From IMG/VR virus record IMGVR_UViG_3300029250_000151, positions 1 through 4,197 of that record: a stretch of 4,197 bases of DNA; one strand, given 5' to 3'. The position numbers and the translations under genes are program-made. The notes below the pieces were generated by a model, which ran no database searches, was not told where the DNA came from, and was given only the letters and a program-made list of their open reading frames with translations. Below are positions 1 to 3,836 of the stretch, piece after piece (position 1 is the stretch's first letter; each line of letters opens with the position of its first letter). Source of the DNA: a virus. Taxonomy: Duplodnaviria > Heunggongvirae > Uroviricota > Caudoviricetes.

Positions 1-2264
1 GCGGCGTCTGCAATTTTTGCCTCCGAAAACCAGAACTCAAACTGCACCGTCGGGTCATACACCGCAAGACGCGGTACCGCCGTTATCTGAAAATACCCCG
101 GCGTCAGTTCAACACCGGCAGGCGCTGCCGGTGCGTTAATCCGGAACGTGGTGGTGGCGGGTTCGCCCTGCTGGCCATAGCTGTTAATCGCCCTGACCGT
201 CAGGGTGTATTCCCCGGGAGGCAGGCCACTGAAACGGTGCTCCGTATCGGCAGTGATGGCGGTGGTCAGCAGGCGGCTGTTCTCACCGCTTCCACTGGTC
301 AGGCGCAGACTGAAGCGCACGCCCTTCACCACCCTCGGCGTGTCCCATTTCGCCAGCGCCAGATACTGGCTGTCAGCCGCGCTCACCTCCACCGTCAGGT
401 GCTGTACTGCCGGTGGGATAACGCTGTTCAGGGTGCCTGACTGCGGCTCAAAGCGGGCTCCGTTATCCACAATGGCTTCTTTTTCCGGTACGTGCTGCAC
501 CGCCGTGATGGCAAAGGTGCCGTCCGTGTTTTCCCGGATGGCCACACAGCGGAACAGGCGACGGCGCAGTGACGGCAGGGAGAGTCCCCACACCCCGTAT
601 GTCTCCACACCATCAGGCAGGGTACTGACCTGTATCCGGTCCGGCGCGGGGTGTGCGGTGATGTCCACACTCACCGGCTTACCGCTGCCGTTAATCAGGT
701 TCACCGTCGATGCACCTGTCCCCGGAAGTGTCACTTCACGGTCCAGCGTCAGGGTGCGGGTGGCAGCATCAATGGACAGGACACGTCCGCCGGTCAGGGT
801 TCCGGCATAGTCGTTATCACAGATTTCAATGATGTCACCGGGTGTGTGCCGCAGCCCCTGAGACCCGAGTGTGAAATCCACCGTCTGCGTTTCCAGCAGT
901 TCGGTCTTTATCACCCACAGCCCGGCACGGTGGGCCTGACCGCGGCTGGTACAGCCGAACGCGTCCATCTTCAGCAGGTTGCGTCCGTAGCGCAGTATGG
1001 CTTCCGGGTCTTCCACCAGTTCCGTGGAGGTCTGCCAGCCGTTCTGCGGGTCGGTGTAATTCACCTCCACCGCCGTGTGCCGGTCCTTCAGGGCACTGAA
1101 GCTGTAGCGGAACCCCACGCCGTTATCATCCACCACCACATCGCTGTTGGTGTACGGCCACACCACATCCGACGTGCGGTCCTGAACGAACGTCAGCGTC
1201 TGACCGTTCCATACCGGCATACAGCGCATCGCAGAGCAGAAATCACTGAGAACGTCCCACGCCTTACGCTGTTGTGCCAGGTACGCATTAAAGGTCATCC
1301 GCGGCTCTGTGCCCCCGAAACCATCCGGGACCGTCTGGTCGCAGTACTGCCCGATGGCATACAGCGCCCACTTGTCCACATCCGCCGCTCCCAGGCGTTT
1401 TCCCATGCCGTAGCGCGGGTGAGTCAGCATGTCCCACAGACACCAGGCCGGGTTGTTGCTGTATGCCGGTTTCAGACTGCCGTCCCAGATACCGCTGTAC
1501 GTGCGTTTTTCCGGGTCATAGTTTGACGGCACCTGGATGATGCGACCGCGGATATGGTAGTTCACCGTCATCTGCTGGCCACCAAACTGCTCCGCATCCA
1601 CCTGCATCCCCACAATGGCCGTGTTCGGGTAGCACTGTTTCACATCGATGATTTCGGTGTATGACGACCACAGCGTTCTGTTCTGCAGCTGGTCCGTGGT
1701 GCTGTCCGCCGTCTCCCTGACCATCCGGATGTTAAAGGGGCGGGGAGGCAGATTATCCAGAATCACCGACGCCAGGAACTGCGAGGTGGTCTTGCCGTTA
1801 ATGGTGACATCCTTTTCCGTCATCCATTTACCACCACGCTCAAGCTGAATCAGCAGGCGGACAGACGTCGGATTACGGTCACCCTTTGACGTGGTCTCCA
1901 CCAGTGACTGCACCCCGAAGGTCACCCGCAGGCGGTCAATGTTCGCTGACGTAATGGTGCGTGTCACCGGTTTTGCCTTCGTCACCTCCACACCCAGTAC
2001 AGTTTCAGCTCCGGAGGACTCAAAGCCTTCCGGTGGTGTCTGCTCCTGCTCCCCGGCACGCCAGACGGCGGTCACACCGTGTATCACGGGATTACCGTCC
2101 GTGTCCGTCAGCGGGGTTTTGTTCACCAGAATACTCTGCAGTCCCTTCACCGGACCTTCCACCGGTCCCTCACCAATGGCATCAATCACACTCATCATCT
2201 GCGTGGATTTGAGATTATCCTTCGCCTCACGCGGTGTGTGCCCCTTGCCGCCCCCTTTACCCAC
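1..2264 (-). CDS. J: Host specificity protein J (tail tip / central tail fibre protein), N-terminal ~754 codons; 3' end lies beyond the window start
   Basis: Reverse-strand translation from GTG at 2264 reads [39 protein letters not shown]... and continues without a stop to position 3 (...[30 protein letters not shown]...[27 protein letters not shown]...[19 protein letters not shown]). This resembles lambda gpJ as I recall it (N-terminus [20 protein letters not shown]). A Shine-Dalgarno-like GGAGAGGGGGACAGA sits immediately upstream of the GTG, and there is no in-frame ATG upstream. Absent from the ORF track because its stop is outside the window. Frame was spot-checked at 1431..1442. Confidence 0.9.
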
Positions 2265-2307: not shown

Positions 2308-2339
2308 AAAAAACAACAGGCACCCCGGAGGATGCCTGT
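2308..2339 (-). terminator. Rho-independent terminator oriented for minus-strand transcripts, ~45 nt upstream of the J start
   Basis: Minus-strand RNA: ACAGGCA-UCCUCCGGGG-UGCCUGU. The 7-bp perfect stem (2316..2322 / 2333..2339) can extend to ~10 bp with a UCCG tetraloop, and is followed by UGUUUUUUGGG (2305..2315). On the plus strand the same hairpin is preceded by an A-run and not followed by a T-run, so it is unidirectional. Confidence 0.5.
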
Positions 2340-2376
2340 ATCATGACTGAATAAAAATTCTGAATATCTTCACATT

Positions 2377-2404
2377 TTCACAAACTGACTGTGGCGCGTA
2401 TAAT
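2377..2404 (+). promoter_or_regulatory. Candidate sigma70-type promoter: -35 TTCACA (2377..2382), 16-bp spacer, -10 TATAAT (2399..2404); predicted start near 2411
   Basis: Perfect consensus -10 hexamer and a 5/6 match to TTGACA at an acceptable 16-bp spacing, with an AT-rich tract upstream (ATAAAAATTCTGAATATC). Plus strand, so directed against the minus-strand tail operon. Confidence 0.4.
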
Positions 2405-2413
2405 TTCGCTGCG

Positions 2414-2467
2414 TTAGTGTTTTTTTTGCCCGAGTAACAAAAACAACTCCTTAACATTAATCTTCAT
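2414..2467 (-). CDS. Hypothetical 17-aa mini-ORF (MKINVKELFLLLGQKKH), mutually exclusive alternative to the plus-strand sRNA
   Basis: ATG at 2467..2465 is preceded by GGGGACAGACAA, a second copy of the J-type Shine-Dalgarno region. The ORF contains a Leu/Phe run (TTG TTT TTG TTA CTC) and an A8 tract, with stop TAA at 2416..2414. Very short, so it could easily be fortuitous. Confidence 0.12.
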   Translation of the reverse strand: MKINVKELFLLLGQKKH

Positions 2468-2470
2468 TTG

Positions 2471-2479
2471 TCTGTCCCC
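2471..2479. repeat. 9-bp direct repeat TCTGTCCCC, right copy
   Basis: Exact copy of 2265..2273; it overlaps the left arm of the 2477..2501 hairpin. Confidence 0.4.
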
Positions 2480-2509
2480 GCAGCTCCGCGATCACTGCGG
2501 GATTTTTTT
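2477..2509 (+). terminator. Rho-independent terminator oriented for plus-strand transcripts, abutting the I stop codon
   Basis: CCCGCAG (2477..2483) pairs with CTGCGGG (2495..2501), with an 11-nt loop CTCCGCGATCA, then A and TTTTTTT (2503..2509). On the minus strand the hairpin is preceded by the A-run, so it is not a terminator for the I transcript. Confidence 0.5.
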
Positions 2510-2514
2510 ATGTT

Positions 2515-3195
2515 TTATCCCTGTCGACCAATAACCACCACCTTTCCGCCCCCGCCTTCATCACGGGTGCTGATGTCCTGAGAGATACGTCGTGAACCAA
2601 CCAGCATTTCACCGTAGGGCACCGGCATCGGGTTGCCCTGGGCAATCATGTTGTCCAGTGAGGAAAAGTACGTGTTCTGTCTGCCGTTATCCGTTGCGCG
2701 GTAATCCGGTGTTTTTGCCTTCGGGGCCAGCATCTGTGCCACACCACCCAGAATCATGCTGGCTCCAAGTGAAAACAGCATCGTGGTGGCAGAAAAACCA
2801 CCGGCTGCCAGGGCTGAACCCCATAACGCCATTGATGCCCCGGCAGTGAAGAAAGAGCCCACGATGGCTGCCGCCCCCAGCACAATCTGCAGTCCACCCT
2901 TTCCGGCCCCGGCCAGTCGCGGCACAATGTGGATGACCGTTCCCTCACCCAGTGGTTCGTGAAGACGGGCGTACACCGCCTCCGGTGCCGTGTCATCACC
3001 GGCAATACGTATCTGGTACCAGCCTTCGTTCATCTGACGGCGAAAGCCCGGCATCTGCATCGACAGGGCGCGGATGGCTTCCGCTGCCGTGTTCACATAC
3101 AGGCTGAGGCGGCGGCCAAATCGTTGTAAATTCCCGTGAAGGCAGATGCGTGCCAGTGGCGGTGACGCCAGACAGAATGCGTTCGTCGTTGCCAT
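2515..3195 (-). CDS. I: Tail assembly protein I (lambda gpI family; ubiquitin-like N-terminal region plus Gly/Ala-rich hydrophobic C-terminal region)
   Basis: 226-aa ORF MATTNAFCLASPPLARICLHGNLQRFGRRL...QNTYFSSLDNMIAQGNPMPVPYGEML... resembles lambda gpI (223 aa) as recalled. ATG at 3195..3193, TAA at 2517..2515. The start lies 103 nt inside the 3' end of K, the same overlap I recall for lambda K/I. Confidence 0.9.
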   Translation of the reverse strand: MATTNAFCLASPPLARICLHGNLQRFGRRLSLYVNTAAEAIRALSMQMPGFRRQMNEGWYQIRIAGDDTAPEAVYARLHEPLGEGTVIHIVPRLAGAGKGGLQIVLGAAAIVGSFFTAGASMALWGSALAAGGFSATTMLFSLGASMILGGVAQMLAPKAKTPDYRATDNGRQNTYFSSLDNMIAQGNPMPVPYGEMLVGSRRISQDISTRDEGGGGKVVVIGRQG

Positions 3196-3836
3196 TTTTC
3201 GGAATACCTCTCTCGTTTGCTCAGTTGTTCAGGAATATGGTGCAGCAGCTCGCCATCACCACAGTAAATGGCGGCATGATTCGGCACCGATGAACCAAAA
3301 CAGCACAGCAGCACATCGCCCGGTTGTGCTGATGACAACGGCACCTGATACAGCCCTGTGGCCTCCAGATTATCCAGGTACAGGTTCTGGCCGTTGCGCC
3401 ACCAGTCATCCTCGCGATGAAAATCCGGCATTTCAGTCCCCGCCAGATGATAAGCATCCCGGAACAGCGTGTAACAGTCCGTCACCCCGTGCGCAAAGCG
3501 CCGTCCTGTCAGATGTGGCACACAGCGGAATTTGTGAATGTCACCCCGGCAGACCAGCCACCAGGGCAGGGCACTTTTTATCTGCAGCCGCCGGTCAGCC
3601 TCGCTCAGCCAGGGCAGCCCACCGGGATGACTGTGGACCAGTGCCACAATCTCCCCCTGCATCTCTGCCCGCAGCCAGTCTTCCGGGGCAATACGAAAAT
3701 ATGCCTCAGGCTCTGCAGAGATATTCACACAAGGGATATACCGCTCCCCCTCCGGCGTGCTTATCACGAAGCCGCACGACTCCGCAGGCGCACACCGCCG
3801 GGCATGCGCCAGAATCGCTGATTCAGTCTGTGTCAT
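3093..3836 (-). CDS. K: Tail assembly protein K (lambda gpK family; JAMM/MPN metalloprotease-like motif plus NlpC/P60-like region), 247 aa
   Basis: Translation from ATG 3836..3834 is MTQTESAILAHARRCAPAESCGFVISTPEGER... It contains HSHPGGLPWLSEAD, an exact HxH-x7-S-x2-D JAMM motif (~3594..3635), and a downstream Cys/His region (DCYTLF...NHAAIY...LLHH) consistent with NlpC/P60. Stop TGA at 3095..3093. The start is 10 nt after the L stop. The ORF-track extension to a TTG at 4097 runs through L in another frame and is rejected. Confidence 0.88.
   Translation of the reverse strand: MTQTESAILAHARRCAPAESCGFVISTPEGERYIPCVNISAEPEAYFRIAPEDWLRAEMQGEIVALVHSHPGGLPWLSEADRRLQIKSALPWWLVCRGDIHKFRCVPHLTGRRFAHGVTDCYTLFRDAYHLAGTEMPDFHREDDWWRNGQNLYLDNLEATGLYQVPLSSAQPGDVLLCCFGSSVPNHAAIYCGDGELLHHIPEQLSKRERYSEKWQRRTHSVWRHRHWHASAFTGIYNDLAAASACM

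What the first reader, a model, noticed from the sequence alone, without database searches (positions are those of the whole stretch)
2377..2509. Candidate ~100-nt sRNA transcribed against the tail operon from a near-consensus promoter
-35 TTCACA, 16 bp, -10 TATAAT on the plus strand, then an intrinsic terminator ending at 2509, delimits a ~99-nt transcript with no credible ORF. The RNA would carry an (A-R-N)x4 tract, AACAAAAACAAC (2437..2448), plus a 3' hairpin with a U7 tail, both features of Hfq-binding RNAs. The CA-rich tract is the kind of sequence recognised by GU-rich seed regions of core sRNAs such as GcvB, so a decoy or sponge role is conceivable. Prophage-encoded 'anti-sRNAs' have been described in pathogenic E. 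coli, but I cannot verify whether this locus is one of them. It would also be cis-antisense to any read-through tail transcript across the I-J junction.
Basis: partly seen in the sequence, partly recalled or inferred. Interest (0 to 1): 0.72.

Follow-up and report, generated by a model that had tools for sequence, protein, structure and literature searches.

The report
PasB prophage small RNA, already described
The candidate is real but not new: it is a near-identical copy of PasB, an Hfq-dependent small RNA validated in enteropathogenic E. coli that lies between lambdoid prophage tail genes I and J, and the EHEC RNAs EcOnc22/23/24 are alleles of the same gene.

Summary
A TTCACA-16-TATAAT promoter (2377-2404) and an intrinsic terminator (stem 2477-2501, U7 to 2509) sit on the plus strand. 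They lie in the 250-nt gap between tail genes I and J, which are on the minus strand. No conserved ORF is present on either strand.

The predicted 99-nt RNA differs at only 3 positions from PasB of EPEC E2348/69. PasB occupies the same I-J gap, antisense to the tail genes. It was validated by northern blot, is Hfq-dependent and makes 37 RIL-seq interactions. Its observed form is 83 nt, equivalent to window 2427-2509.

The EHEC Sakai RNAs EcOnc22/23/24 (Hfq-CRAC, ~85 nt northern, destabilised without hfq) are a diverged allele at the same site. CLASH reads give their sequence and strand.

Across 80 prophages chosen only by their I protein, 79 carry the module. Promoter, 5' end, two internal motifs and terminator are conserved; the centre varies in at least four allele classes.

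The GcvB-sponge idea is not supported. Pairing to GcvB R1 is no better than shuffles, the CA tract is allele-specific, and no PasB-GcvB chimera appears in the RIL-seq block I could read. This is not AgvB or AsxR.

Verdict: already known; low interest.

The parts
2355..2376 (+). Conserved A/T-rich block upstream of the -35 (AAATTCTGAATATCTTCACATT); a possible UP element
   Evidence: Mean column conservation is 0.93 across 62 unique modules. Part of this block was used as a search pattern for half of that set. It is also invariant in the set chosen by I protein alone.
2377..2404 (+). Sigma-70 promoter: -35 TTCACA (2377-2382), 16-bp spacer, -10 TATAAT (2399-2404)
   Evidence: 11/12 match. A site this good occurs in 1.4% of shuffled windows. 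The hexamers and spacing are identical in 35 of 43 unique I-J intergenic regions.
2411..2509 (+). Predicted primary transcript of the PasB-family sRNA, 99 nt
   Evidence: The covariance model built from 24 alleles matches 2411-2509 end to end at 98.8 bits. It differs from EPEC PasB at 3 positions.
2427..2509 (+). Equivalent of the observed 83-nt PasB; the 5' end falls just after the U-run
   Evidence: PasB coordinates are 1466343..1466261 in NC_011601.1, mapped onto L218. EHEC CRAC and CLASH fragments start at the same boundary. The fold is mostly single-stranded apart from the terminator.
2420..2427 (+). 5' U8 run, variable in length among alleles (U4-U9)
2428..2445 (+). Allele-variable centre. 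Here it is GCCCGAGUAACAAAAACA, which includes five A-R-N triplets at 2433-2447
   Evidence: Column conservation is 0.68, with indels. Allele classes were counted.
2446..2452 (+). Conserved ACUCCUU motif, resembling an anti-Shine-Dalgarno sequence
   Evidence: Conservation is 0.87. The motif is kept even in diverged tandem paralogues.
2457..2465 (+). Conserved UUAAUCUUC motif in the single-stranded region upstream of the terminator
   Evidence: Conservation is 0.95. The region is unpaired in the folds. The Zhu, Shabalina and Storz preprint proposes the PasB seed in this region.
2477..2509 (+). Intrinsic terminator and likely Hfq 3' binding site: 7-bp stem, 11-nt loop, A, U7
   Evidence: The stems are 0.99-1.00 conserved, with one compensatory G-C to A-U change. 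The published PasB northern probe is the exact reverse complement of 2483-2505.
2316..2339 (-). Context: intrinsic terminator on the tail-gene strand (10-bp stem plus U-run), 50 nt upstream of the J start
   Evidence: Other prophages carry different cargo at this position.
2515..3195 (-). Context: tail assembly protein I
   Evidence: Pfam Lambda_tail_I, E = 1.4e-15; RefSeq annotation of a 98%-identical locus.
1..2264 (-). Context: 5' part of tip attachment protein J, start codon GTG at 2264
   Evidence: Pfam FNIII-A_GpJ, Ig_J and Phage-tail_3; RefSeq gpJ.

Best explanation
The locus is a copy of pasB, a small self-contained transcription unit (a 'moron': promoter, short RNA, terminator). It is inserted between tail genes I and J of a lambdoid prophage and points against late transcription.

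In a lysogen the host sigma-70 polymerase starts at the near-consensus promoter, about position 2411, and stops at the intrinsic terminator at 2509. The RNA that accumulates is probably about 83 nt (2427-2509), after loss of the first ~16 nt including the U-run.

It is largely unstructured except for the terminator hairpin. Hfq binds it through the 3' hairpin and U-tail, and probably through the A-R-N tract. It then acts in trans as a base-pairing regulator of host and prophage mRNAs, using the single-stranded stretch between the variable centre and the terminator (ACUCCUU ... UUAAUCUUC).

Shown here: the anatomy, its conservation, and its identity with PasB and EcOnc22-24. Shown by others on homologues: expression, size, Hfq dependence and many RNA partners. 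Inferred: expression in this particular strain, 5' processing, which nucleotides form the seed, and what the targets of this allele are.
For: Identity.
- The window RNA differs from EPEC E2348/69 PasB at 3 of 99 positions.
- The covariance model scores 98.8 bits on the window, 97.5 on PasB and 93 on the EHEC Sp15 copy.
- PasB lies between the I stop (1466255) and the gpJ start (1466496), on the opposite strand.

Experiments on homologues.
- PasB is 83 nt, confirmed by northern blot, and its stability depends on Hfq. It ranks 15th by number of RIL-seq interactions (37) and appears as RNA2 in the chimera seen, as sRNAs do.
- EcOnc22 is an Hfq-CRAC peak with a ~85 nt northern band, and is destabilised in the hfq deletion.
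- RNase E CLASH reads spell GCCTGAAAAATAACTCCATAACGTTAATCTTCA. That is the plus-strand sequence of the Sp15 I-J gap.

Conservation.
- 79 of 80 prophage loci chosen only by I-protein similarity carry one module.
- 35 of 43 unique intergenic regions keep TTCACA-16-TATAAT, and all 43 keep the hairpin plus a T6-7 tail.
- Promoter, 5' end, two internal motifs and stems score 0.87-1.00. The centre and the pre-terminator stretch score 0.61-0.68.

Other points.
- No conserved ORF exists on the opposite strand.
- The mature form is mostly single-stranded.
- The EHEC allele is strongly complementary to the yjbJ site recovered by CLASH: -30.9 kcal/mol against -16.2 +/- 3.6, with 0 of 500 shuffles as good. 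This supports trans base-pairing by the central and seed region.
Against: - No expression data exist for this window's strain.
- The observed 5' end of PasB and the 5' boundary of the EHEC fragments lie 15 nt downstream of the +1 predicted from the strong promoter. Either there is processing or the start site is mis-predicted.
- The targets of the PasB-type allele are not known to me. I could not read the PasB rows of the RIL-seq tables.
- The CLASH hybrids for EcOnc22-24 are supported by only one or two reads each.
- No covariation supports any structure beyond the terminator.
- A cis-antisense role on the late transcript is not excluded and could coexist with a trans role.
Confidence: 0.85

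Rival explanations
1. GcvB decoy or sponge. The CA-rich tract pairs with the GU-rich R1 seed of GcvB and titrates it, as AgvB does.
For: - The tract AACAAAAACAAC at 2436-2447 is A/C-rich.
- It is single-stranded in the mature form.
- By hand it can form about 9 of 10 pairs with GUUGUGUUUG of GcvB (sequence).
- The RNA binds Hfq in homologues.
Against: - Duplex energy with R1 is -15.4 kcal/mol, against -14.1 +/- 3.0 for composition-matched shuffles; 35% of shuffles are as good. AgvB gives -22.3.
- The CACAACA consensus is absent.
- The tract is missing from the commonest allele class and from the EHEC allele.
- The activating-condition sRNA-sRNA block of the EPEC RIL-seq table lists GcvB-SroC but no GcvB-PasB pair, although EPEC PasB has the identical tract.
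- There is no Rfam match to AgvB or AsxR.
Confidence: 0.05
2. Cis-antisense regulator of the phage's own or an incoming phage's late tail transcript. The RNA is perfectly complementary to about 99 nt of the I-J spacer. It could trigger RNase III cleavage or interfere with late transcription. That would lower J expression, or exclude superinfecting phages carrying the same allele, as reported for STnc6030 of Salmonella prophage BTP1.
For: - The geometry fits: the promoter fires against the late operon, and the RNA overlaps the I-J spacer.
- A precedent exists: STnc6030, antisense to a tailspike gene, confers superinfection exclusion.
- The variable centre could reflect escape from allele-specific antisense pairing.
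Against: - The complementary stretch is a non-coding spacer, absent from lambda-like relatives with short I-J gaps. Cleaving it has no obvious cost to the phage.
- Hfq dependence and many trans partners in RIL-seq are typical of trans-acting sRNAs.
- There is no above-chance complementarity to the J, I or K translation start regions: 34%, 40% and 70% of shuffles do as well.
Confidence: 0.1
3. The gap encodes a small protein of about 39 aa on the tail-gene strand (MKINV...), ending just before the minus-strand terminator. The plus-strand RNA would then be its antisense partner, as in a type I toxin-antitoxin pair.
For: - An intact 39-aa ORF is present in the EHEC Sp15 allele, and 41-aa versions occur in a few others.
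- A terminator follows on that strand.
- Some phage records annotate a hypothetical protein here.
Against: - The start codon is absent in 40 of 78 unique modules.
- Where a start codon is present, the ORF length ranges from 12 to 41 or more codons.
- The ORF is frameshifted in this window, to 17 aa.
- The peptide is not hydrophobic.
Confidence: 0.02

Closest known systems
PasB, a pathogenicity-associated sRNA of EPEC E2348/69 prophage PP6 (Pearl Mizrahi et al. 2021, PMC8550237; distribution study by Zhu, Shabalina and Storz 2026, bioRxiv 10.64898/2026.05.13.724894)
   Same: Same place (I-J gap), same strand relative to the tail genes, same promoter and terminator. The sequence is 96 of 99 identical, and the published northern probe matches the window exactly.
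   Different: U8 instead of U7 at the 5' end, plus two substitutions: A2453 in place of C (position 27 of the 83-nt RNA, the site the preprint says distinguishes PasB from PasB-2) and A2459 in place of G. Expression of this copy is untested.
EcOnc22/EcOnc23/EcOnc24 of EHEC O157:H7 Sakai prophages Sp15, Sp14 and Sp11 (Tree et al. 2014, PMC4104026; Waters et al. 2017, PMC5286369)
   Same: Homologous module in the same I-J gap and on the same strand. The 5' end, the ACUCC motif, UUAAUCUUC and the terminator are conserved. The RNAs are Hfq-bound, ~85 nt, and lose stability without hfq.
   Different: About 82% identity across the gap. The promoter is weaker (8/12). The centre differs (GAUGCCUGAAAAAUAAC, with a 6-nt deletion of the CA tract). 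That allele pairs with yjbJ; the window allele does not. Neither PasB paper that I read links PasB to these names.
AgvB and AsxR anti-sRNAs (Rfam RF02702, RF02703)
   Same: Prophage-encoded and Hfq-binding, with an A-R-N motif in a variable 5' part and a conserved 3' terminator part. They were found in the same CRAC study.
   Different: They have a different locus (downstream of PR', near the lysis genes), different sequence and size (51-60 nt), and a demonstrated sRNA target. No Rfam match was found here, and there is no significant GcvB complementarity.
STnc6030 of Salmonella prophage BTP1
   Same: Expressed from a prophage against the tail-gene strand in lysogens.
   Different: STnc6030 overlaps the tailspike coding sequence and acts in cis or on homologous phages. 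PasB overlaps only a spacer and has many trans partners.

Membership tests
PasB sRNA family | Sequence homology to E2348/69 PasB | tested here: met
   3 differences in 99 nt. Covariance-model scores are 98.8 bits on the window and 97.5 bits on PasB.
PasB sRNA family | Location in a lambdoid prophage between tail assembly protein I and tip attachment protein J, antisense to them | tested here: met
   The window genes were identified by Pfam. The PasB coordinates were compared with the RefSeq annotation of NC_011601.
PasB sRNA family | [quoted passage not shown] | tested here: met
PasB sRNA family | Expressed as an ~83-nt RNA whose stability depends on Hfq | not testable with these tools
   Shown for the EPEC copy and for the EHEC allele. 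There are no data for this strain.
EcOnc22/23/24 (EHEC) | Same transcript as the Hfq-CRAC and CLASH fragments mapped in Sakai Sp15, Sp14 and Sp11 | tested here: met
   The CLASH read sequence equals L002 1352-1384 on the plus strand. This aligns with window 2428-2466 as a diverged allele. The coordinate offset of about +134 between genome versions was checked with AgvB and StxS.
AgvB/AsxR anti-sRNAs | Conserved ~42-nt 3' region (GUAUCUCAUGC...GCCCGAACCC hairpin), with Rfam models RF02702 and RF02703 | tested here: not met
   No Rfam match at E <= 1 anywhere in the window. The sequences are unrelated.
AgvB/AsxR anti-sRNAs | Encoded at the moron site downstream of the late promoter PR' | tested here: not met
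   The candidate lies in the tail operon between I and J. AgvB and AsxR lie at the PR' site.
AgvB/AsxR anti-sRNAs | Specific complementarity to the seed of a core sRNA (GcvB R1 for AgvB) | tested here: not met
   -15.4 kcal/mol against shuffles at -14.1 +/- 3.0; AgvB gives -22.3.
Type I toxin-antitoxin | Conserved small ORF opposite the antisense RNA | tested here: not met
   The start codon is absent in 40 of 78 unique modules, and the ORF is truncated in this window.
Cis-antisense exclusion RNA (STnc6030-like) | Overlaps and represses a structural gene of the phage | tested here: inconclusive
   The RNA overlaps only the non-coding I-J spacer. There is no above-chance pairing to the J, I or K start regions.

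The most novel reading that the evidence does not exclude
PasB (EPEC and ExPEC), EcOnc22/23/24 (EHEC) and at least two further unnamed classes are alleles of one sRNA cassette fixed at the I-J junction of lambdoid prophages. The cassette has a constant scaffold: promoter, 5' end, ACUCCUU, UUAAUCUUC and terminator. Its central segment can be exchanged, and this retargets the RNA to different host mRNAs (yjbJ for the EHEC allele). Copies sometimes occur as tandem arrays of two or three units.

The published PasB survey describes PasB as the least diverse Pas sRNA, and neither PasB paper I read names EcOnc22-24. So the unification and the swappable-centre idea appear not to have been stated.
Probability: 0.5. 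Interest if true: 0.4.

Novelty: already known. Interest (0 to 1): 0.2.

Why it matters
For the genome scan this is a true positive that can be annotated as pasB, not a discovery. Its practical value lies in three points.

- RefSeq, the phage records viewed and Rfam leave this RNA unannotated. Yet sequences similar to this I-J gap occur in at least 1799 of 5426 complete E. coli genomes, with up to 10 places per genome.
- Two literatures use different names for what the alignments show to be one gene family: EHEC EcOnc22-24 and EPEC PasB.
- The family's variable centre gives a natural set of allele swaps for asking how a prophage sRNA acquires new host targets.

Tried and rejected
- Rfam scan of the whole window at E <= 1: nothing.
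- GcvB pairing: no better than shuffles.
- Pairing of the sRNA to the J, I and K translation start regions. A 9-nt match, UCUGUCCCC to GGGGACAGA, lies next to the J start. It is not above chance, it overlaps the terminator stem, and by eye it is not matched in two other alleles I compared.
- A conserved 5' secondary structure. Individual alleles fold differently, and RNAalifold keeps only the terminator.
- A small ORF on the tail strand: not conserved.
- The module in distant I-J loci of Enterobacter, Pseudocitrobacter, Rahnella and Pantoea: no covariance-model hit. Their gaps are about 90-100 nt or carry other inserts.
- Full-text search for the RNA sequence in papers: no hits.
- Reading PasB partners in the RIL-seq tables. 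The non-activating sheet, where PasB is most abundant, was not read.
- Genome-wide target prediction for this allele: not possible, because no whole genome is available to the scripts.

Full report
**Context.** The window carries the distal tail genes of a lambdoid prophage on the minus strand.
- The 5' 2.26 kb of tip attachment protein J starts at GTG 2264. Its Pfam hits are FNIII-A_GpJ, Ig_J and Phage-tail_3.
- Tail assembly protein I spans 2515-3195 (Lambda_tail_I).
- The JAB/NlpC-P60 protein K spans 3093-3836.
- A 98%-identical RefSeq locus is annotated the same way.
- The only non-coding gap is 2265-2514, and the finding lies inside it.

**Observation.** The scan finds TTCACA-16-TATAAT at 2377-2404 on the plus strand, 11 of 12 matches. 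It also finds a hairpin plus T-run ending at 2509.
- The MFE fold gives a 7-bp stem, 2477-2483 with 2495-2501, followed by A and U7.
- A site of at least 11/12 appears in only 14 of 1000 shuffled windows.
- No ATG-initiated ORF lies within 2411-2509 on the plus strand.
- The CA/A-R-N tract is at 2436-2447, one base off the stated coordinates, and extends to five A-R-N triplets from 2433.

**First identification: EcOnc22-24.** Rfam has no match. Similar sequence occurs in 1799 of 5426 complete E. coli genomes (median 2 and up to 10 places per genome) and in 147 phage records, mostly Stx-converting phages at 80-90% identity.
- Table S2 of Tree et al. 2014 lists EcOnc22 (Sp15, 2902714-2902774, plus strand, northern ~85 nt, destabilised in the hfq deletion), with homologues EcOnc23 (Sp14) and EcOnc24 (Sp11).
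- In NC_002695.2 the Sp15 I-J gap is 2902691-2902930, with the tail genes on the minus strand.
- The table uses the older genome version. The offset is about +134 to +140, calibrated with AgvB and with the StxS terminator.
- Decisive evidence comes from the CLASH hybrid tables of Waters et al. 2017. They print the EcOnc22/23/24 read as GCCTGAAAAATAACTCCATAACGTTAATCTTCA. That is exactly the plus-strand sequence of the Sp15 gap and aligns with the centre of the candidate.
- A 2021 review lists EcOnc22 (synonyms EcOnc23 and EcOnc24) with targets unknown.

**Second identification: PasB.** A 2026 preprint on the prophage Pas sRNAs led me to PasB.
- Table S6 of Pearl Mizrahi et al. 2021 places PasB at NC_011601.1 1466343..1466261, minus strand, 83 nt, in prophage PP6.
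- In RefSeq this is the gap between the tail assembly protein (ends 1466255) and gpJ (starts 1466496), both on the plus strand.
- The covariance model I built from 24 alleles hits there at 97.5 bits.
- The alignment shows three differences from the window across the predicted 99-nt transcript: U7 for U8, C for A2453 and G for A2459.
- The published northern probe is the exact reverse complement of window 2483-2505.
- PasB was confirmed by northern blot and has Hfq-dependent stability. It is more abundant in the non-activating condition and ranks 15th by RIL-seq interactions, with 37.
- The candidate is therefore PasB, a known RNA.

**The 5' end.** PasB's 5' end from RNA-seq coverage falls 15 nt downstream of the +1 predicted from the strong promoter, immediately after the U-run. 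The EHEC CRAC peak and CLASH fragments begin at the same boundary.
- The equivalent window species is 2427-2509, 83 nt. It folds as a single-stranded body plus the terminator.
- I infer transcription from about 2411 followed by 5' processing. This is not shown.

**Family anatomy.** I collected 80 IMG/VR loci chosen only by similarity of protein I.
- 79 of the 80 carry one module next to the I stop codon.
- Counting the window, L001 and L002 as well, there are 43 unique intergenic regions. Of these, 35 keep TTCACA-16-TATAAT. The other 8 keep an 8-10/12 promoter-like site; this group includes the expressed EHEC allele at 8/12.
- All 43 keep the hairpin and a T6-7 tail, giving predicted lengths of 90-101 nt.
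- With a further 119 loci found by a DNA pattern, column conservation is as follows:

| Region | Conservation |
|---|---|
| -10 box | 0.92 |
| First 12 transcribed bases | 0.90 |
| CAACUCCUU | 0.87 |
| UUAAUCUUC | 0.95 |
| Terminator stems | 0.99-1.00 |
| Centre, short linker and pre-terminator stretch | 0.61-0.68 |

- The only consensus structure is the terminator, with one compensatory pair.
- At least four centre classes exist. In the set chosen by I protein the counts are type b 50, PasB-type 20, type d 6, EcOnc22-type 1 and other 2.
- Some prophages carry two or three modules in tandem.
- The stretch between the module and J is itself variable cargo. It can be a minus-strand terminator, as here; another 180-nt segment; or a sodC-like gene on the sRNA strand.
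- Distant I-J loci in other Enterobacterales lack the module.

**Function.** Hfq dependence, many trans partners and a single-stranded conserved stretch upstream of the terminator point to a trans-acting base-pairing sRNA. The Storz group also proposes the seed in that stretch.
- The EHEC allele is strongly complementary to the yjbJ site recovered by CLASH: -30.9 kcal/mol, with 0 of 500 shuffles as good.
- The window allele, type b and type d are not complementary to that site. Alleles therefore probably differ in their targets.

**GcvB-sponge proposal.** It fails the tests available.
- Pairing with R1 is no better than shuffles and far weaker than AgvB.
- The tract is allele-specific.
- The RIL-seq block I could read lists no PasB-GcvB chimera.

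**Other rivals.**
- A cis-antisense role on the late transcript is geometrically possible and has a precedent in STnc6030. However, the overlapped sequence is only a spacer, and there is no above-chance pairing to the J, I or K start regions.
- A minus-strand small ORF, intact in the EHEC allele, is not conserved.

**Verdict.** The RNA is already described as PasB, and in EHEC as EcOnc22/23/24. The specific sponge mechanism is unsupported.

The only modest addition here is that these differently named RNAs, plus unnamed classes, form one allelic family with a conserved scaffold and a variable centre at the I-J junction.

Noticed in passing
window 2316-2339 (minus strand): A strong intrinsic terminator (10-bp stem, then UGUUUUUUGG) lies inside the late tail operon, 50 nt upstream of the J start codon. 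Only antiterminated polymerase should read through it into J. No minus-strand promoter was found between I and this terminator.
   Followed up: partly
L018 and L020, I-J gap (positions 201-728 of the oriented extract shown for L020): In these prophages the stretch between the sRNA module and J holds a ~740-nt insert. It carries a Cu/Zn superoxide dismutase (SodC-like) ORF and its own terminator, on the same strand as the sRNA. The I-J junction therefore looks like a hot spot for cargo oriented against late transcription.
   Followed up: no
L142 4418-4980; L101, L155 and L175 (two pattern matches 179 nt apart): The sRNA module occurs in tandem arrays: three covariance-model hits in L142, and a diverged second module upstream of the standard one in the others. 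The diverged copies keep the ACUCCUUA motif. One reads ACCUCCUUA, which from memory matches the 3' end of 16S rRNA.
   Followed up: partly
window 2341-2474 (minus strand); L002 (EHEC Sp15): A 39-aa ORF (MKINVMELFF...) is intact on the tail strand in the EHEC allele. In the window it is split by a frameshift in the homopolymer run into a 17-codon ORF and a 38-aa ORF. It lacks its ATG in 40 of 78 unique modules.
   Followed up: yes
Waters et al. 2017, supplementary file 4 (Sakai v1 2902729-2902766): The EcOnc22 locus is labelled 'asxR2' in one hybrid table. This looks like a find-and-replace of 'EcOnc2' by 'asxR'. The sequence is EcOnc22, not an AsxR paralogue.
   Followed up: partly
window 3093-3195: Genes K and I overlap by about 100 nt if I starts at ATG 3195; from memory, lambda I has the same N-terminus. 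RefSeq annotates homologues with a shorter I that starts at the K stop (582 nt).
   Followed up: no
Table S6 of PMC8550237; bioRxiv 10.64898/2026.05.13.724894: The EPEC tables note EHEC homologues for PasA, PasD and another sRNA but none for PasB. The 2026 survey calls PasB the least diverse Pas sRNA and never mentions EcOnc22-24. The alignments here show they are alleles of one family.
   Followed up: yes
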